NCBI GenBank assembly: GCA_041752495.1
Contig: JBGSWJ010000523.1
Location: 38-64,037, forward strand
From: Rhodobacterales bacterium
GTDB taxonomy: Bacteria > Pseudomonadota > Alphaproteobacteria > Rhodobacterales > Rhodobacteraceae
Length of the DNA: 64,000 bases
Direction of reading: 5' to 3'
The notes under the pieces are model-generated. The model had not been told where the DNA came from and made no database searches. It saw only the letters and a program-made list of their open reading frames with translations. The first letter of the stretch is position 1. Every line of letters begins with the position of its first letter. This document shows positions 34,613 to 48,996 of the stretch, one piece after another. Made by a program: the position numbers and the translations under genes.

Positions 34613-34861
34613 ATGCGGAAGGTCGTTCGGAAATTGCCACGACAGGGCAGAATGCCCCCGCCTGCCGCGCCCCCGCTGGAACCCGTGATCGAACCGGGAG
34701 AGTGGACCAATGTTCAGATCATCCCGCCGGAACCGAAGAAGCTGATCTCGCTTCGGCTTGACCCCGATGTTCTTGCGTTTTTTCAGGGACAGGGCCGAGG
34801 GTATCAGACCCGCATCAACGCTGTGTTGCGGGCCTATATGAAGGCGAACAAGGGTGACTGA
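34613..34861 (+). CDS. BrnA-type (DUF4415) antitoxin-like protein, apparently orphan
   Basis: 82 aa; C-terminal ISLRLDPDVLAFFQGQGRGYQTRINAVLRAYM matches the BrnA signature as I remember it. No BrnT-like ORF is adjacent. Confidence 0.7.
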   Translation: MRKVVRKLPRQGRMPPPAAPPLEPVIEPGEWTNVQIIPPEPKKLISLRLDPDVLAFFQGQGRGYQTRINAVLRAYMKANKGD

Positions 34862-34864
34862 CGT

Positions 34865-35890
34865 CTACTGAAGATTCTGCCAGATCAGCGTCTGATCGCC
34901 GCCAAGTTTGGAATAGTGGATCGGGCGATACTGTTCAGCAAAGCGGTCGAGCGCGTCGTGGTCGGGCATATCGTCAAGCTGCAGATAAGCTTCGATCCAA
35001 GCGAAATAGAAGCCCTCGAATTCGTCGGTGCCGTCAAAGAAACTTTGGATTTCGCCGGTGATGGCAGTGGTGGCGGCCCCGTCGTCGATGTCGTTCATTG
35101 CGAACCGGATGATGCGCGAGAGCGCACCGTCACAGACGTTCTGAAGATCGATCCCCTGCCGTTGGAGCAGGAGTGTTGAGACGACAAGCGGGGAAATGGC
35201 GTGAAGCTGATAGTGCAGCGCGAACTTGCCCCGGCCCATTTCCTGAGGAAGACTTCCGTCCTGAGCGGCCGAGCACATGATGTGACTGACTGACCATGCA
35301 GACCAGGCGCGCAAGGCCGGGTCGTCGAGGATTGCTGCCGCGCTTGCCCCGCCAAGGGCGGACCACGCGCGCAGATTGCCTTGGCGTGCACCATCGGGGG
35401 CTTCGTTTTCCCAATAGGCCGTCTGCGCCCACATCAGCCGCCGCAACCAAGACTTGATATCATCCACGTCGCTGGACGGAGTCGCAAAGGGAATGACCTG
35501 AAGCAGGACCAGACCGAAGCCTGCAATCCGCGAGCCGACCGTGAGATTTGCGGTTTCCGAAGCAAGATCAGACATGGCATCGGCGCGTGCCCAGACGGTG
35601 ATCTGACCAATAATGCAATCGGCGATGTCCTGTCGTTCGTCGGCATCCTCGAACACCTTGTTTGCGTCGGTCGTCAGATCGCGCAGAAAATCATCGACGG
35701 GCCGCAGGGCGTCATCGGCCTCTTCGGCAGCGTCAGGGTCGATTTCAGACCGAGTTCCTTCCTGGTCGGAGTAGCGGCTTCCATAGGACAAGCTAAGCAC
35801 AGGCTCGGGCGGTTCGGCGCATTGTTCGGCGAGAGCTGTGCCGGCGCCGGACAGGAACATCACAAGCGCGACGACTGTATTCCGCATCAT
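34865..35890 (-). CDS. algL: AlgL-like periplasmic alginate (polymannuronate) lyase, PL5-like
   Basis: 341 aa with a signal peptide. LPQEMGRGKFALHYQLHAISPL parallels AlgL [22 protein letters not shown]. 4-nt overlap with the upstream gene. Confidence 0.65.
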   Translation of the reverse strand: MMRNTVVALVMFLSGAGTALAEQCAEPPEPVLSLSYGSRYSDQEGTRSEIDPDAAEEADDALRPVDDFLRDLTTDANKVFEDADERQDIADCIIGQITVWARADAMSDLASETANLTVGSRIAGFGLVLLQVIPFATPSSDVDDIKSWLRRLMWAQTAYWENEAPDGARQGNLRAWSALGGASAAAILDDPALRAWSAWSVSHIMCSAAQDGSLPQEMGRGKFALHYQLHAISPLVVSTLLLQRQGIDLQNVCDGALSRIIRFAMNDIDDGAATTAITGEIQSFFDGTDEFEGFYFAWIEAYLQLDDMPDHDALDRFAEQYRPIHYSKLGGDQTLIWQNLQ

Positions 35891-46371: not shown

Positions 46372-47691
46372 TTACCAGCAAATGCCCTGGTATTGACCTT
46401 CGGACACCATCGCGCGGTTCATGCGGGTCAGGTCCACGACAGGAAGGGTCTTGGACGCCTTTTCAAGCGTGCCGACCGTATTCTTGTAGTAGTTGCCCAC
46501 AAGGATCGCGCCGTTGTTGCCGATCAGCGTGTCGATGTCTGCGACCATCCGTTCCTTCAGATCGGGGATCACGTCATTGCCACGGCCGGCCGTCGAGTTG
46601 TTGGCGGCATAGGCTTCGTAGACATACGGGTCGTAGATATCGACATCGACGCCCTTCTTGATCAGCCGCGCGGCCAGTTCGGCCAGCGGGCTTTCGCGAA
46701 GGTCATCGGTACCGGGCTTGAAGCTGATGCCGACAAAGCCGACCTGCTTGACGCCGGATGCTTCGATCATGTCCTGGGCGCGTTGGATCTGGGCTTCATT
46801 CGCCTCGACGACCGCGTTCAGGAGATGGGCACTGACGCCGGTTTCGGCGGCAAGATGCTTGAGCGCGCGCACGTCCTTTGGCAGGCACGAGCCGCCAAAG
46901 GCAAAGCCGGGACGCATGAAGTACTTGGACATAGCGACCTTTTCGTCCGAGCACAGGATTTCCATGACGGTCTGGCCATCGAGACCCGAAGCCTTGGCGA
47001 TGTTGCCGATTTCGTTGGCAAAGGTCACCTTCACGGCGCGCCAGGTGTTCGAGGTGTATTTGACCATCTCCGCGGTGCGGAGGTCCACGGTGTGGATCGT
47101 GCAATTCAGGCCGCTGTTGAGGGCCGAAAGGAAGTCACCGGTCGGTTTGTCCATCGAACCGAACACGATCAGGCCAGGATCGTAGTAGTCTTCGATCGCT
47201 GTGCTTTCCCGCAGAAATTCAGGGTAGTAGCCGACGCCAAAGTCACGGCCGGCCAGTTTGCCCGAAGCTTCCTGAAGTGTGGGGATGCAGGTGCCTTCGG
47301 TGCTCCCTGGCACAATGGTCGAACGGATGACGACCGAATGATAGGCAGCCTTGTTGGCCAGCGCCTTGCCGATGTTGCGGCAGACACCTTCGACATAGGT
47401 CAGACCAACAGATCCGTCCGGCGCGCTGGGCGTGCCGACGCAGACAAAGCTGGCGTCCGTATTGTCGATTGCAAACTGCACATCGCTGGTCGCGATCAGC
47501 TTGCCTGCCTTGACGACCTTGGCGATCAGATCGTCCAGACCGTTTTCAACGATGGGCGACAGCCCGTCGTTGATCGCTTTGATTTTGCCGGGGTCGACAT
47601 CAACGGCAATAACGTCATGACCATCGCTGGCCAGACATGCTGCCGATACTACGCCGACGTATCCGATGCCGAACACGCTCACTCTTGCCAT
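46372..47691 (-). CDS. algD: GDP-mannose 6-dehydrogenase
   Basis: 439 aa; VFGIGYVGVVSAACLA Rossmann motif; catalytic-Cys motif FGGSCLPKD. Confidence 0.92.
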   Translation of the reverse strand: MARVSVFGIGYVGVVSAACLASDGHDVIAVDVDPGKIKAINDGLSPIVENGLDDLIAKVVKAGKLIATSDVQFAIDNTDASFVCVGTPSAPDGSVGLTYVEGVCRNIGKALANKAAYHSVVIRSTIVPGSTEGTCIPTLQEASGKLAGRDFGVGYYPEFLRESTAIEDYYDPGLIVFGSMDKPTGDFLSALNSGLNCTIHTVDLRTAEMVKYTSNTWRAVKVTFANEIGNIAKASGLDGQTVMEILCSDEKVAMSKYFMRPGFAFGGSCLPKDVRALKHLAAETGVSAHLLNAVVEANEAQIQRAQDMIEASGVKQVGFVGISFKPGTDDLRESPLAELAARLIKKGVDVDIYDPYVYEAYAANNSTAGRGNDVIPDLKERMVADIDTLIGNNGAILVGNYYKNTVGTLEKASKTLPVVDLTRMNRAMVSEGQYQGICW

Positions 47692-48072
47692 ATTTTTGCC
47701 TCATTGTCTTTTTTTGTGTTAGATTATTTTCTTTGAATATGAGTGGGTTGGCAGAACCGATCAAACAAAATTCAGCATTGTTTCCGTCTTTGCAACGCCC
47801 CGTGCCAAAATCGCTACAGTGCAGAAAACTTGCGTGTATGTTGTGTCGTTCGTGTCATTCAGACTCAAGACTTGGTGCCTCTCTGCAAAAATCCGCCGAG
47901 CGATGTACAACTTTGGGTTGTTTTGCCTTTGAAGTGACCATCCGTCGCCACTGCCCCGGACTTGACCAGACATGGCCGAACAGCCATTAACGATCGAAAC
48001 GAGGCGGGCAGCCCAAACCAAAGTCAGTTCCGACCTGCCTTGAGAAAGCCATAATCTCCGGGAGAACCGACG
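47692..48072. promoter_or_regulatory. Divergent low-GC control region between algD and the lyase-like lipoprotein gene
   Basis: 381 bp non-coding and visibly AT-enriched, e.g. tttttgtgttagattattttctttgaatatgag. Promoters were not resolved. Confidence 0.5.
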
Positions 48073-48996
48073 TTGCGGCACAAGATCGGCAGTATCCTCT
48101 TGATTGGCCTACTCGCGGCATGCGGTCAGGTCGTTACCATAAATCTTCCAGGTGGTTCTGGCGGAGGAGGTGTTCCTGACGGGTACGATCTTCTTTTCAG
48201 TCCGGCACCCCATGCGTTCGCGATGGTCAGCGCGCCTGAACCAGTTCGCCGTGGCGAGCTGAGCGAACGCTATGAATTGCGTGACGGGGACTGCGGGGGA
48301 TCAGACTGCGGTAACTATCGTTATCGTTCCGAGATCAGCGAAAACAAGGACTTTACCGTTGCACGCCTAAACCGTGATATCTGGTTCGGCTGGAGCTTTT
48401 ACAACGACACCATTTTGTCGGTCAGTCGAGACACCTGGCTCGGGACAGTCGTGGGTGGGTGGAAGCTGGAAGGTGAACAACCTGCGATCTTCCGGTTCGT
48501 TCAGCAGCCCTTGGGAGTGGGCAATTGGGCCAGCTGCGATCCGACCGTCTGCAATCGTAGCGGCAACCCGAATGACGATGTTGTGGTTCAACTGGATGAG
48601 ATGCGTCAGTCGGCAAACTGGGGTGATGCTCAGAACGACGGGAATATCTGCCGACTTTGGAGCATGCAAGGCAACCTTGGCCGCTGGGTCGATATCGTTG
48701 TAAACACCAATTTCGGCACGGACGGCTATGGCTATCTGCGGATCTGGATCAATGGCGAAATGAAGTGCAATTATACCGGACAGATGGTTTCGGCAGAGCG
48801 TGCCCGGACGCAAGTTCCAGGACCGACAAATCGGCGCGGAATCTTCAACAGCTACACGCAGCGTTGGGCGGAACGTCAAGGCACAGCCGTCAAGCCGCGC
48901 ATGATTGTCCATTATGACGAATTCTCTGTCGGACTTTCGCGCCTTGACGTTGATACTCGCCTTCGTGAAGCAAGCAGGCTCCCGCCCGTCGACTGA
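48073..48996 (+). CDS. Lipoprotein with jelly-roll polysaccharide-lyase-like features (PL7/PL20-like)
   Basis: TTG start preceded by GGAGAA. Lipobox LLAAC. YRSEISEN resembles the R(S/T)E motif of beta-jelly-roll lyases. 307 aa. Confidence 0.45.
   Translation: MRHKIGSILLIGLLAACGQVVTINLPGGSGGGGVPDGYDLLFSPAPHAFAMVSAPEPVRRGELSERYELRDGDCGGSDCGNYRYRSEISENKDFTVARLNRDIWFGWSFYNDTILSVSRDTWLGTVVGGWKLEGEQPAIFRFVQQPLGVGNWASCDPTVCNRSGNPNDDVVVQLDEMRQSANWGDAQNDGNICRLWSMQGNLGRWVDIVVNTNFGTDGYGYLRIWINGEMKCNYTGQMVSAERARTQVPGPTNRRGIFNSYTQRWAERQGTAVKPRMIVHYDEFSVGLSRLDVDTRLREASRLPPVD

What the first reader, a model, noticed from the sequence alone, without database searches (positions are those of the whole stretch)
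34613..48996. Alginate-type (polymannuronate) exopolysaccharide island inserted inside the hslV-hslU operon of a Rhodobacterales-type genome
hslV (49000-49560) and hslU (33205-34515) lie on the same strand but about 14.4 kb apart. In most proteobacteria they form an adjacent, co-transcribed hslVU pair. The intervening DNA carries nine tightly packed co-directional genes (47691 down to 34865) with start/stop overlaps of 4, 4, 4 and 8 nt at four junctions. Their products read as AlgD (GDP-mannose 6-dehydrogenase), Alg8 (GT2 synthase), Alg44-like co-polymerase, AlgA/ManC, an AlgG-like beta-helix, a Sel1-like protein, an AlgX-like protein, a 911-aa Sel1 protein and an AlgL-like lyase. A divergent lyase-like lipoprotein gene and a BrnA antitoxin-like gene sit at the two edges. 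Alginate synthesis is textbook biology of Pseudomonas and Azotobacter (Gammaproteobacteria), and the canonical order algD-8-44-K-E-G-X-L-I-J-F-A is not kept here. Parts of the island are visibly less GC-rich than the flanks; for example 44041-44100 has 26 G/C in 60 nt by hand count. I found no integrase, tRNA or flanking direct repeats, so the insertion mechanism is unclear.
Basis: partly seen in the sequence, partly recalled or inferred. Interest (0 to 1): 0.85.

Follow-up and report, generated by a model that had tools for sequence, protein, structure and literature searches.

The report
Reduced alginate-type gene cluster splitting hslV–hslU
A ten-gene sugar-polymer cluster of the alginate type sits between two normally neighbouring protease genes in a freshwater Rhodobacterales chromosome; the same cluster is common in this bacterial order, including on plasmids, and has lost the known acetylation, epimerisation and c-di-GMP-sensing features, so it probably makes plain polymannuronate.

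Summary
hslV (49000-49560) and hslU (33205-34515) are intact, co-oriented and 14.4 kb apart, separated by nine co-directional genes, a divergent lyase lipoprotein gene and a brnA-like gene.

- The cluster is alginate-type. AlgD is a GDP-mannose 6-dehydrogenase. Alg8 is 43% identical to an Alg8 encoded beside a canonical Alg44. The Alg44-like N-domain folds as the Alg44 PilZ domain.
- It is not exotic for the order. The same nine genes in the same order occur in about 55 Rhodobacterales species and on RepABC plasmids.
- Only the window and two close relatives carry it between hslV and hslU. Of 66 related contigs, 38 have the two genes adjacent and 28 hold 0.5-1.8 kb of other genes there. The cluster is therefore a lineage-specific insertion into a frequently occupied spot. 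It is older than the split of three sampled genomes and is only mildly off in composition.
- brnA belongs to the earlier occupants of the interval, not to the island.

This type of cluster is reduced:
- algI, algJ, algF and algE are absent;
- AlgX lacks its catalytic Ser and His;
- the AlgG-like protein lacks DPHD;
- the AlgL-like protein has Leu at its catalytic His;
- the Alg44-like protein lacks RxxxR and DxSxxG.

The likely product is unacetylated, unepimerised polymannuronate made without c-di-GMP control by the known route. That part is inferred, not shown.

The parts
33205..34515 (-). hslU (436 aa), intact. It marks the downstream backbone edge.
   Evidence: Pfam AAA_2/AAA. It is 95% identical to L002. 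Backbone synteny is conserved in about 66 related contigs.
34516..34612 (.). 97-nt divergent intergenic region between hslU and brnA. Any hslU promoter of its own would have to lie here (inferred).
   Evidence: Sequence read. The same divergent brnA/hslU arrangement occurs in L103 and L166. No consensus promoter was found.
34613..34861 (+). Orphan brnA-like antitoxin gene (82 aa). It is a pre-existing occupant of the hslV-hslU interval, not part of the EPS cluster.
   Evidence: PF14384, 4e-17. brnA, or brnT+brnA, lies beside hslU in L103, L132 and L143, which lack the island. No brnT remnant is present in the window.
34865..35890 (-). AlgL-like PL5 protein (341 aa, signal peptide). Leu replaces the catalytic His (motif GNLRAW), while the R...LHY motif is kept.
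   Evidence: PF05426. PDB 7wxj and 4ozv poly-M lyases, 1e-18 to 1e-21, with alignment. GNLRAW is near-invariant (43 of 46 loci exact); the Leu and Arg are invariant in all 46.
35887..38622 (-). 911-aa periplasmic all-alpha Sel1/TPR solenoid (signal peptide). Presumed AlgK-like scaffold; it has no beta-barrel.
   Evidence: Pfam Sel1. AF2 pLDDT 82, about 49 helices and no beta-strand elements. Foldseek returns only generic SLR/TPR hits.
38633..39943 (-). AlgX-like SGNH-fold protein (436 aa, signal peptide) lacking the catalytic His and Ser, so a predicted pseudoenzyme or scaffold.
   Evidence: PF16822, 1e-38. In the PDB 4knc/7ula alignment, DHH becomes DYR and GTS becomes GTE. The loss is found in all type A loci, whereas type B keeps DFHW/GTS.
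39940..40725 (-). 261-aa secreted helical protein with a weak Sel1-like repeat. It is conserved within the cluster.
   Evidence: No Pfam hit above threshold; Sel1 E 0.05. Homologues at the same position in 51 loci.
40741..42282 (-). AlgG-like right-handed beta-helix protein (513 aa from ATG 42282) without the DPHD epimerase motif.
   Evidence: Pfam Beta_helix/NosD. NCBIfam AlgG 62 bits against a cutoff of 700. In the PDB 4ozz/4nk6 AlgG alignment (3e-13), DPHD aligns to TV-SR. The motif region is not conserved across 76 loci.
42275..43705 (-). ManC, mannose-1-phosphate guanylyltransferase (476 aa). The C-terminal PMI cupin is not detectable.
   Evidence: Pfam NTP_transferase + ManC_GMP_beta-helix, no PF01050. 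TIGR01479 matches positions 2-392 of 467 only. The C-terminus lacks His ligands. ManC in L144 and L167 does hit PF01050.
43702..44862 (-). Alg44-like co-polymerase (386 aa): PilZ-fold domain, one TM helix, periplasmic MFP-like domain. The c-di-GMP motifs are absent.
   Evidence: No Pfam or PDB sequence hit. AF2 N-domain pLDDT about 90; the top Foldseek hit is the Alg44 PilZ domain 4rt1, TM 0.76. Aligned with proteins named Alg44, QRQHxR becomes xEHPx and DWSxxG becomes GxSxxA.
44890..46365 (-). Alg8, a GT2 mannuronan synthase (491 aa, multi-TM).
   Evidence: Pfam Glyco_tranf_2_3. JGI and UniRef name homologues 'Alg8' or 'mannuronan synthase'. It is 43% identical over its full length (3e-134) to the GT2 encoded beside a canonical PilZ Alg44.
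46372..47691 (-). AlgD, GDP-mannose 6-dehydrogenase (439 aa).
   Evidence: PDB 1mfz, P. aeruginosa GMD: 7e-128, 430 bits, full length. The best UDP-glucose dehydrogenase scores 255 bits.
47692..48072 (.). Divergent algD/PL intergenic region. It holds a conserved motif at 47790-47821 (minus strand: CTGTAGCGATTTTGGCACGGGGCGTTGCAA), about 115 nt upstream of algD.
   Evidence: Alignment of 10 upstream regions. The motif occurs at -109 to -124 in the closest subgroup only. No Rfam family matches.
48073..48996 (+). Polysaccharide-lyase-fold lipoprotein (307 aa, PF14099). It is divergent from algD and travels with the cluster.
   Evidence: PF14099, 9e-17. Conserved upstream of algD in 29 loci. RefSeq names it 'heparin lyase I family protein' on the Tateyamaria plasmid.
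49000..49560 (-). hslV (186 aa), intact. It marks the upstream backbone edge, and its stop codon lies 3 nt from the PL stop codon.
   Evidence: Pfam Proteasome. 97% identical to L002. Junction read.

Best explanation
**What it is.** The 14.4 kb between hslV and hslU holds a synthase-dependent, alginate-family exopolysaccharide module, followed by an orphan brnA. The module is a lyase lipoprotein gene plus algD-alg8-alg44-manC-algG-like-p261-algX-like-Sel1/TPR-algL-like.

**How common it is.** This module is a conserved, self-contained 'type A' cluster of Rhodobacterales. It is found on chromosomes and on RepABC plasmids.

**How it got here.** In the ancestor of the window organism and at least two sampled relatives, the module landed in the hslV-hslU spacer. 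In this order that spacer often holds accessory genes: a 355-aa membrane protein, a GNAT, or brnTA. The insertion lies in an origin-proximal chromosomal core.

**How it probably works (inferred).**
1. ManC makes GDP-mannose.
2. AlgD oxidises it to GDP-mannuronate.
3. Alg8, with the Alg44-like co-polymerase, polymerises and translocates poly-beta-1,4-mannuronate.
4. In the periplasm, a scaffold guides the chain. It consists of a catalytically dead AlgX-like protein, a DPHD-less beta-helix and two Sel1/TPR proteins.
5. A variant PL5 protein and the PF14099 lipoprotein trim or clear the polymer.

**Predicted properties.** algI, algJ and algF are absent, and the AlgX, AlgG and PilZ signature residues are missing. 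The polymer is therefore predicted to be unacetylated and unepimerised, and its synthesis should not be gated by c-di-GMP binding to Alg44. The route across the outer membrane is not encoded in the cluster.
For: **Shown**
- Enzyme identities: AlgD; Alg8; Alg44 fold and architecture; AlgX, AlgG and AlgL homology.
- The nine-gene order is conserved in about 55 species and on the Tateyamaria omphalii pDOK1-4-5 and Jannaschia sp. M317 plasmids.
- A fuller 'type B' relative carries algI, algJ, algF and an AlgX with intact DFHW/GTS. It occurs in Tabrizicola, Salipiger and Loktanella; Devosia, Roseibium and other loci group with it by the extra DNA between algG and algX and by the intact AlgX motifs. 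Type A is thus a reduced form.
- The motif losses are found in every type A locus: for AlgX, AlgG and AlgL; for Alg44 against sequences named Alg44.
- Sel911 is all-alpha.
- Insertion: only L002 and L166 share the hslV/hslU context. In 66 related contigs the spacer is at most 100 nt (38 contigs) or 0.5-1.8 kb (28 contigs).
- brnA lies next to hslU in L103, which lacks the island.
- Island and backbone proteins are equally diverged between the window and L002, at 80-95% and 85-97%.
- The compositional shift is mild.
- The window carries mutS, hrcA, parAB, rsmG, mnmG, rho, trxA and addAB.
Against: - No chemistry or expression data exist.
- Loss of the known catalytic or ligand residues does not prove loss of function. 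An Arg follows the Leu in AlgL (NLRAW) and could substitute. His52 and Ser74 of the PilZ-like domain are invariant, so a different ligand mode is possible.
- No outer-membrane porin was found, so secretion is unexplained.
- Horizontal arrival (for example from a plasmid) and intragenomic relocation could not be told apart.
- The insertion left no mechanistic scar.
- The rest of the genome was not available, so algC, a PMI and any porin could not be checked.
Confidence: 0.72

Rival explanations
1. This is a recently acquired foreign island. On this view an alginate operon was imported from Gammaproteobacteria (Pseudomonas or Azotobacter type) into a Rhodobacterales genome.
For: - Alginate biology is best known in Gammaproteobacteria.
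- The island is about 2.5 points lower in GC, and its tetranucleotide usage deviates at 42-50 kb.
- The position is specific to one lineage.
Against: - All of the closest 120 Alg8 and 120 Alg44-like homologues that carry names are Rhodobacterales.
- The gene order is shared by about 55 Rhodobacterales species.
- Identity to the canonical-type Alg8 is only 43%.
- GC3 lies within the host range.
- Three diverged genomes share the insertion, with co-diverged sequences.
Confidence: 0.03
2. The position is ancestral. On this view the cluster has always lain between hslV and hslU in this group, and other lineages lost or moved it.
For: The two nearest relatives have the same arrangement, and composition is nearly host-like.
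Against: - In every other cluster-bearing genome sampled (about 78 loci), neither hslV nor hslU lies within 10 kb of the cluster.
- In 66 related contigs the spacer never exceeds 1.8 kb and holds unrelated genes.
- Contigs with HslV 88-92% identical (L083, L085, L103, L131) lack the island.
Confidence: 0.08
3. The cluster does not make polymannuronate. It would either build another polymer that only starts from GDP-ManA, or be a decaying, non-functional remnant, as the many lost catalytic residues might suggest.
For: - AlgX, AlgG, AlgL and PilZ signature residues are missing.
- There is no porin.
- The cluster in Pseudophaeobacter leonis looks frameshifted.
Against: - All ten ORFs are intact, and many alignment columns are invariant across species only 50-65% identical. 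This points to purifying selection.
- The cytoplasmic enzymes (AlgD, ManC, Alg8) are strongly conserved.
- No other glycosyltransferase is present in the module, so a heteropolymer is unlikely.
Confidence: 0.15
4. The junction is an assembly or binning artefact that joins an EPS contig to the hslVU region.
For: Relatives are metagenome-assembled genomes (MAGs), and some cluster-bearing MAG contigs are clearly mis-binned (L015 'Granulosicoccus', L023 'Exiguobacterium').
Against: The same junctions on both sides appear in three independent assemblies at 80-97% protein identity: the window, NCBI JAPLPE010000034 (200 kb) and JGI Ga0620611_000317 (143 kb).
Confidence: 0.01

Closest known systems
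Pseudomonas aeruginosa / Azotobacter vinelandii alginate operon (algD-8-44-K-E-G-X-L-I-J-F-A)
   Same: - It begins with the same committed step, a GDP-mannose 6-dehydrogenase (430 bits to 1mfz).
- It has an Alg8 GT2 synthase and an Alg44 architecture: a PilZ fold, a TM helix and a membrane-fusion-like periplasmic domain.
- It encodes AlgX-family, AlgG-family and PL5 AlgL-family proteins.
- It encodes a GMP enzyme and Sel1/TPR proteins, the repeat class of AlgK.
   Different: - Gene order differs.
- There is no AlgE porin and no AlgI, AlgJ or AlgF.
- The AlgX catalytic His and Ser are replaced.
- DPHD is absent from the AlgG-like protein.
- The AlgL catalytic His is replaced by Leu.
- The Alg44 RxxxR and DxSxxG motifs are absent.
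- ManC lacks a detectable PMI cupin.
- It has an extra PF14099 lyase lipoprotein and a 911-aa TPR protein where Pseudomonas has AlgK.
'Type B' alphaproteobacterial alg cluster. Full 12-gene order confirmed in Tabrizicola (partly), Salipiger sp. CCB-MM3 and Loktanella salsilacus plasmids. Devosia, Roseibium, Marivita and Alloyangia loci are assigned from the extra DNA between algG and algX and from intact AlgX motifs.
   Same: It has the same backbone order algD-alg8-alg44-manC-algG-...-p261-algX-...-TPR-algL. It shares the Alg44 subtype without RxxxR, lacks AlgE, and carries the same DPHD-less beta-helix.
   Different: - Type B keeps algI (MBOAT), algJ and algF, and its AlgX has intact DFHW/GTS motifs. 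Its polymer is therefore probably O-acetylated.
- A response-regulator gene sits upstream where type A has the PL lipoprotein gene.
- Its proteins are 30-65% identical to those of the window.
'Atypical alginate operons' of environmental bacteria (Bundalovic-Torma et al., bioRxiv 10.1101/769745)
   Same: That survey reports divergent alg operons with rearrangements, loss of algKE and/or modification genes, and unusually divergent alg44 and algX.
   Different: In the text read, the survey does not describe this Rhodobacterales cluster, its residue-level losses, its plasmid carriage or its hslV/hslU location. Its supplementary figure could not be inspected.
Split hslV-hslU loci of Rhodobacterales
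   Same: The backbone addA-trxA-hslV-[spacer]-hslU-MltA/Tim44 is conserved, and 42% of related contigs carry accessory genes in the spacer.
   Different: Typical inserts are one or two genes (0.5-1.8 kb), whereas here the insert is 14.4 kb. One other contig (L144) has an unrelated insert of at least 10 kb at the same place.

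Membership tests
Alginate (alg) biosynthesis system | GDP-mannose 6-dehydrogenase (AlgD) | tested here: met
   Full-length match to P. aeruginosa GMD 1mfz: 7e-128, 430 bits. The best UDP-glucose dehydrogenase scores 255 bits.
Alginate (alg) biosynthesis system | Alg8 GT2 mannuronan synthase | tested here: met
   Pfam GT2_3. Sources name close homologues Alg8 or mannuronan synthase. It is 43% identical over the full length (3e-134) to the GT2 encoded between algD and a canonical PilZ Alg44.
Alginate (alg) biosynthesis system | Alg44 architecture: N-terminal PilZ fold, one TM helix, periplasmic membrane-fusion-like domain | tested here: met
   AF2 model. Best Foldseek hits are the Alg44 PilZ domains 4rt1/4rt0 (TM 0.65-0.76), with weak hits to BesA, EmrA and MexA for the C-terminal part. 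A profile search reaches proteins named Alg44.
Alginate (alg) biosynthesis system | c-di-GMP-binding PilZ motifs RxxxR and D/NxSxxG in Alg44 (R17, R21, D44 of P. aeruginosa; PMC8461298) | tested here: not met
   In alignment with named or canonical Alg44 proteins, QRQHxR corresponds to xEHP[VLI] and DWSxxG corresponds to [GEAQ]xSxxA. There is no conserved Arg ahead of strand 1. No Pfam PilZ hit, whereas a canonical relative does hit PF07238.
Alginate (alg) biosynthesis system | AlgE outer-membrane beta-barrel porin | tested here: not met
   No island protein matches a porin family. The only large unassigned protein is all-alpha. None is annotated beside the cluster on four plasmids. The rest of the genome could not be checked.
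Alginate (alg) biosynthesis system | AlgK TPR/Sel1 lipoprotein scaffold | tested here: inconclusive
   Two secreted Sel1/TPR-type proteins are present. Neither the PDB sequence search nor the Foldseek search returns AlgK specifically.
Alginate (alg) biosynthesis system | AlgG mannuronan C5-epimerase with DPHD catalytic motif | tested here: not met
   The protein is homologous to AlgG structures 4ozz and 4nk6 (3e-13), but DPHD aligns to TV-SR. The region is not conserved in 76 loci. The NCBIfam AlgG score is 62 against a cutoff of 700.
Alginate (alg) biosynthesis system | AlgX SGNH catalytic Asp-His-Ser | tested here: not met
   The ALGX domain is present (1e-38). His is replaced by Arg and Ser by Glu in the alignment to 4knc/7ula. 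His is replaced by Arg in nearly all type A loci (Lys or Gly in two) and the Ser is absent in all; type B loci keep both residues.
Alginate (alg) biosynthesis system | O-acetylation genes algI, algJ, algF | tested here: not met
   They are absent from the window island. MBOAT, ALGX and AlgF families are present in type B relatives.
Alginate (alg) biosynthesis system | AlgL PL5 lyase with catalytic His and Tyr | tested here: inconclusive
   PL5 homology at 1e-18 to 1e-21. Arg and Tyr (R...LHY) are kept, but His is replaced by Leu (NLRAW), invariant in all 46 loci. Other variants at this His position are known in marine PL5 homologues (PMC11890756).
Alginate (alg) biosynthesis system | Bifunctional AlgA (PMI + GMP) | tested here: inconclusive
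   The GMP domain is present. The PMI cupin (PF01050) is not detected, and the C-terminus has no His ligands.
Alginate (alg) biosynthesis system | Product is a mannuronate/guluronate polymer | not testable with these tools
   This needs EPS purification and NMR or HPAEC.
Classical genomic island | Integrase, tRNA target, flanking direct repeats | tested here: not met
   No tRNA in the window. No integrase family among the island proteins. Only chance-level repeats.
Classical genomic island | Patchy phyletic distribution at the site, and deviant composition | tested here: met
   The site is occupied by the cluster only in the window, L002 and L166. Deviation in GC and tetranucleotide usage is mild but measurable.
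BrnT/BrnA toxin-antitoxin pair | Adjacent BrnT toxin gene | tested here: not met
   BrnA domain only. No brnT-like sequence in the window. Complete pairs occupy the same spacer in L132 and L143.

The most novel reading that the evidence does not exclude
Rhodobacterales, including many roseobacters and their RepABC plasmids, may carry a so far uncharacterised, streamlined mannuronan system. It would make pure, unacetylated polymannuronate. It would use an Alg8/Alg44 pair that has dispensed with c-di-GMP gating, keep AlgX- and AlgG-like proteins only as non-catalytic scaffolds, and export the polymer without an AlgE-type porin.
Probability: 0.35. Interest if true: 0.7.

Novelty: new variant of a known kind. 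Interest (0 to 1): 0.5.

Why it matters
If the prediction holds, many marine and freshwater Rhodobacterales can make a polymannuronate matrix polymer that current annotation does not recognise. RefSeq calls most of these genes 'hypothetical' or gives them generic names. These bacteria are key colonisers of algae and particles.

The finding would matter in four ways:
- It would give a natural example of an Alg8/Alg44 synthase working without the c-di-GMP switch that is essential in Pseudomonas.
- It would give a natural experiment separating the scaffold role of AlgX and AlgG from their catalytic role.
- It would offer a possible biological source of pure poly-M, which is of biotechnological value.
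- The paired type A and type B clusters form a ready comparative system.

The hslV-hslU location itself is of modest interest. It identifies this spacer as a recurrent landing site for accessory genes in the order.

Tried and rejected
- **PDB sequence searches.** The Alg8 and Alg44-like sequences, and the Alg44-like profile, found nothing. Fold comparison and a library-wide profile search were needed instead.
- **Riboswitch or other RNA family.** An Rfam scan for one upstream of algD, for example a c-di-GMP riboswitch, found nothing.
- **Consensus promoters and terminators.** The scan gave no signal above shuffles.
- **Flanking direct or inverted repeats.** Only chance-level matches were found.
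- **Remnants of earlier occupants.** No trace of the usual 355-aa membrane-protein gene or of brnT remains in the window.
- **Source contig.** Looking it up through the 100%-identical Alg44-like protein returned only a 1.9-kb Logan contig.
- **AlgK identity of the 911-aa protein.** The sequence and fold searches gave only generic Sel1/TPR hits.
- **Sigma-54 reading of the conserved TGGCAC motif.** This was left open. The -12 element is poorly conserved and the motif is confined to the closest subgroup.
- **Literature.** Searches for this cluster in Rhodobacterales or Rhizobium found no dedicated study.
- **Shadow ORF.** 31260-32717 was used as a synteny marker, but it is probably an antisense shadow of the Tim44/MltA genes. 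Its matches still report conserved synteny.

Full report
**Observation.**
- hslU (33205-34515) and hslV (49000-49560) are intact and lie on the minus strand.
- Between them lie nine co-directional minus-strand genes (47691 down to 34865).
- A divergent plus-strand lipoprotein gene with a polysaccharide-lyase domain lies at 48073-48996 (PF14099).
- A plus-strand BrnA-antitoxin-like gene lies at 34613-34861.
- The '911-aa Sel1 protein' starts at 38622, and the beta-helix protein most likely starts at 42282. With those starts the overlaps of 4, 4, 8 and 4 nt are correct.
- The hand GC count at 44041-44100 is right (26 of 60).
- There is no tRNA in the window, no integrase among the island products and no flanking repeat above chance.

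**Is it an alginate-type system?** Yes, at the level of the pathway core.
- The dehydrogenase matches P. aeruginosa GDP-mannose 6-dehydrogenase over its full length (1mfz, 7e-128, 430 bits). The best UDP-glucose dehydrogenase scores 255 bits.
- Sources name close relatives of the GT2 'Alg8' or 'mannuronan synthase'. It is 43% identical over its full length (3e-134) to the GT2 that lies between algD and a canonical, PilZ-positive Alg44 on a JGI contig.
- The 386-aa protein after it has no Pfam or PDB sequence match. Its AlphaFold model has a confident N-terminal beta-barrel, one TM helix and a periplasmic beta-rich domain. The best structural matches are the Alg44 PilZ domain itself (4rt1/4rt0, TM up to 0.76), followed weakly by membrane-fusion proteins.
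- A profile of this family, searched against 1.84 billion representatives, finds only 228 proteins. The distant ones are named Alg44 or mannuronan synthase.
- The ALGX-domain protein, the beta-helix protein and the PL5 protein each hit AlgX, AlgG and AlgL-type structures directly.

**It is a reduced variant.** Residue-level comparison shows that most of the hallmark functions beyond the core are missing.
- *AlgX-like:* the Asp-x-His motif reads D-Y-R, and the Gly-Thr-Ser motif reads G-T-E.
- *AlgG-like:* the DPHD epimerase motif aligns to T-V/S-R.
- *AlgL-like:* the NNH(Y)YW motif reads GNLRAW, so Leu replaces the His, while the Arg and Tyr of R...LHY are kept.
- *Alg44-like:* aligned with canonical Alg44 proteins, QRQHxR corresponds to x-E-H-P-x and DWSxxG to G-x-S-x-x-A. 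Both arginines and the aspartate needed for c-di-GMP binding in P. aeruginosa are absent (PMC8461298).
- *ManC:* it lacks a detectable PMI cupin.
- *Absent genes:* algI, algJ, algF and algE.
- *The 911-aa protein:* it is an all-alpha Sel1/TPR solenoid (pLDDT 82) with only generic structural neighbours. No outer-membrane channel is encoded.

**These changes are properties of a family, not accidents of this genome.** A genome-collection scan with the Alg44-like profile returned 80 loci.
- *Type A.* About 55 loci carry the same nine genes in the same order. They include Fertoeibacter, Marinovum, Oceaniglobus, Pseudoprimorskyibacter, Primorskyibacter, Jannaschia, Halovulum and others. In 29 of them the PF14099 lyase gene lies divergently upstream of algD. 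In these loci the AlgX His and Ser are lost throughout, GNLRAW is near-invariant (43 of 46 exact; Leu and Arg invariant), and E-H-P is near-invariant.
- *Type B.* A second group, 30-65% identical, has about 3 kb of extra DNA between algG and algX. It includes Devosia, Roseibium, Tabrizicola, Marivita, Alloyangia, Salipiger and Loktanella. Where the extra genes were read (Tabrizicola, Salipiger, Loktanella), they are algI (MBOAT), algJ and algF. All loci of this group keep DFHW and GTS in AlgX.
- The window's cluster is therefore a streamlined derivative of an acetylating alphaproteobacterial alg cluster.
- Many columns are invariant across proteins only 50-65% identical. This argues that type A is under selection rather than decaying.

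**Mobility.**
- Type A lies on RepABC plasmids in Tateyamaria omphalii (54 kb) and Jannaschia sp. M317 (105 kb).
- Type B lies on plasmids of Salipiger and Loktanella, with IS30 transposase genes nearby. More distant Alg8 homologues (47-56% identity) lie on large Rhizobium plasmids; their cluster type was not examined.
- RefSeq names for most members are generic or 'hypothetical'.

**The hslV-hslU context.** The window is origin-proximal chromosomal core. It carries mutS, hrcA, parB, parA, rsmG, mnmG, rho, MltA, hslU, then the island, then hslV, trxA, addA and addB.
- Among 80 metagenomic contigs encoding HslV 69-92% identical, the addA-hslV...hslU-MltA backbone is conserved.
- Both genes are visible on 66 contigs. 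The spacer is at most 100 nt in 38 of them and 0.5-1.8 kb in 28.
- The usual insert is a conserved 355-aa multi-TM protein without a Pfam family. Others are a GNAT, a brnT-brnA pair, or the membrane protein plus brnA next to hslU (L103, HslV 89%).
- One contig (L144) has an unrelated insert of at least 10 kb after hslV.
- In none of the other cluster-bearing loci is hslV or hslU within 10 kb.
- Only L002 (Lac Pavin MAG, 200-kb contig) and L166 (JGI contig, 143 kb) share the window's arrangement, including brnA.
- Between the window and L002, island proteins are 80-95% identical and backbone proteins 85-97%.
- The parsimonious reading is a single insertion of the PL-plus-nine-gene module between hslV and a pre-existing brnA-hslU pair. 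It happened after divergence from lineages with HslV at or below 92% identity and before the split of the three sampled genomes. The usual membrane-protein gene was probably displaced, and no remnant is left.
- Both island edges are stop-to-stop junctions 3 nt apart, so the mechanism left no readable scar.
- Composition is only mildly deviant: GC 59.2% against 61.7%, and tetranucleotide correlation 0.88-0.90 at 42-50 kb against 0.94-0.97 elsewhere. GC3 lies within the host range.
- Arrival from another Rhodobacterales replicon, for example a RepABC plasmid, is plausible but not shown.

**Mechanism (inferred).**
1. ManC and AlgD supply GDP-mannuronate.
2. Alg8 and the Alg44-like protein polymerise and translocate it.
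3. The dead AlgX-like protein, the DPHD-less beta-helix and the two Sel1/TPR proteins form the periplasmic conduit.
4. The variant PL5 protein and the PF14099 lipoprotein trim or clear the polymer.

The predicted product is unacetylated, unepimerised polymannuronate whose synthesis is not gated by c-di-GMP at Alg44. There are three caveats. An Arg next to the Leu in AlgL may rescue catalysis. His52 and Ser74 of the PilZ-like domain are invariant and could serve another ligand mode. The outer-membrane step is unexplained.

**Comparison with the literature.** A survey of synthase-dependent EPS operons noted 'atypical alginate operons' in environmental bacteria, with loss of algKE or modification genes and with divergent alg44 and algX (bioRxiv 10.1101/769745). 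Variants at the catalytic His of marine PL5 homologues have also been reported (PMC11890756). I found no paper describing this Rhodobacterales cluster, its residue-level reductions, its plasmid carriage or its hslV/hslU location. The library searched is incomplete.

**Verdict.**
- Observation: confirmed.
- Interpretation: partly supported.
- Novelty: a new, reduced variant of a known kind of system. It is widespread in its order and was inserted once into a frequently occupied spacer of a conserved core locus.
- Interest: moderate, about 0.5. The predicted c-di-GMP-independent, scaffold-only, porin-less mannuronan machinery would be worth testing.

Noticed in passing
window 47790-47821 (minus strand), about 115 nt upstream of algD: A conserved motif, ACTGTAGC-N4-5-TTGGCAC(G), lies at -109 to -124 of algD in the window and its closest type A relatives (L002, L003, L005, L006, L007, L009, L020; weaker in L039 and L055). 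The TGGCAC part resembles a sigma-54 -24 box. L003 has a perfect TGGCAC-N5-TTGC, but the -12 element is poorly conserved elsewhere.
   Followed up: partly
L085 2569-3636, L090 10555-11622, L131 544-1587, L103 552-1619 and others: A conserved protein of about 355 aa with multiple TM helices and no Pfam family is the commonest occupant of the hslV-hslU spacer in related Rhodobacterales (18 of 66 contigs have a spacer of about 1.05-1.3 kb). It is absent from the window.
   Followed up: partly
L144 10549-20543: Another contig has hslV followed by at least 10 kb of unrelated genes (MTTB methyltransferase, TetR, bifunctional ManC/PMI, DUF2793, a 1161-aa RTX protein, PMM), with no hslU in reach. This is an independent large insertion at the same site.
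   Followed up: partly
L132 3809-4346; L143 4658-5171; window 34613-34861: Complete brnT-brnA pairs occupy the hslV-hslU spacer in two relatives. The window, L002, L103 and L166 keep only brnA, divergent from hslU, so it is an orphan antitoxin gene.
   Followed up: yes
L055 (Pseudophaeobacter leonis strain 306) 5830-14687: The alg44, manC and Sel1/TPR genes each give two adjacent, slightly overlapping tblastn pieces. This suggests frameshifts, from pseudogenisation or sequencing errors, in this type A cluster.
   Followed up: no
L015 and L023: Type A clusters 57-82% identical to Rhodobacterales ones sit in MAGs labelled Granulosicoccus sp. and uncultured Exiguobacterium sp. These contigs are most likely mis-binned.
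   Followed up: no
L164 (Salipiger plasmid) 15518-34291; L165 (Loktanella plasmid) 1-638 and 15714-16463: In the type B clusters on these two plasmids, a response-regulator gene lies directly upstream of algD. An IS30 transposase gene abuts the cluster in Salipiger and lies about 16 kb upstream in Loktanella.
   Followed up: no
L167 (JGI Ga0376076_0000156) 1-12458: A third, compact alg layout has algC-algD-alg8-alg44 (canonical PilZ)-algL, with a divergent manC/PMI, a beta-helix gene and a 924-aa gene. It also lacks algE and algI/J/F in the stretch seen.
   Followed up: partly
window 31260-32717 (-), 45013-46356 (+), 46393-47736 (+): Long ORFs antisense to real genes (Tim44/MltA, alg8, algD) are shadow ORFs of this GC-rich genome. 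The 485-aa ORF at 31260-32717 has no Pfam hit, while the opposite strand encodes Tim44- and MltA-family proteins.
   Followed up: yes
window 23001-24000 and 27001-28000: Two further dips in GC (0.54 and 0.57) lie outside the island, near the rho / UPF0093 region. They were not examined.
   Followed up: no
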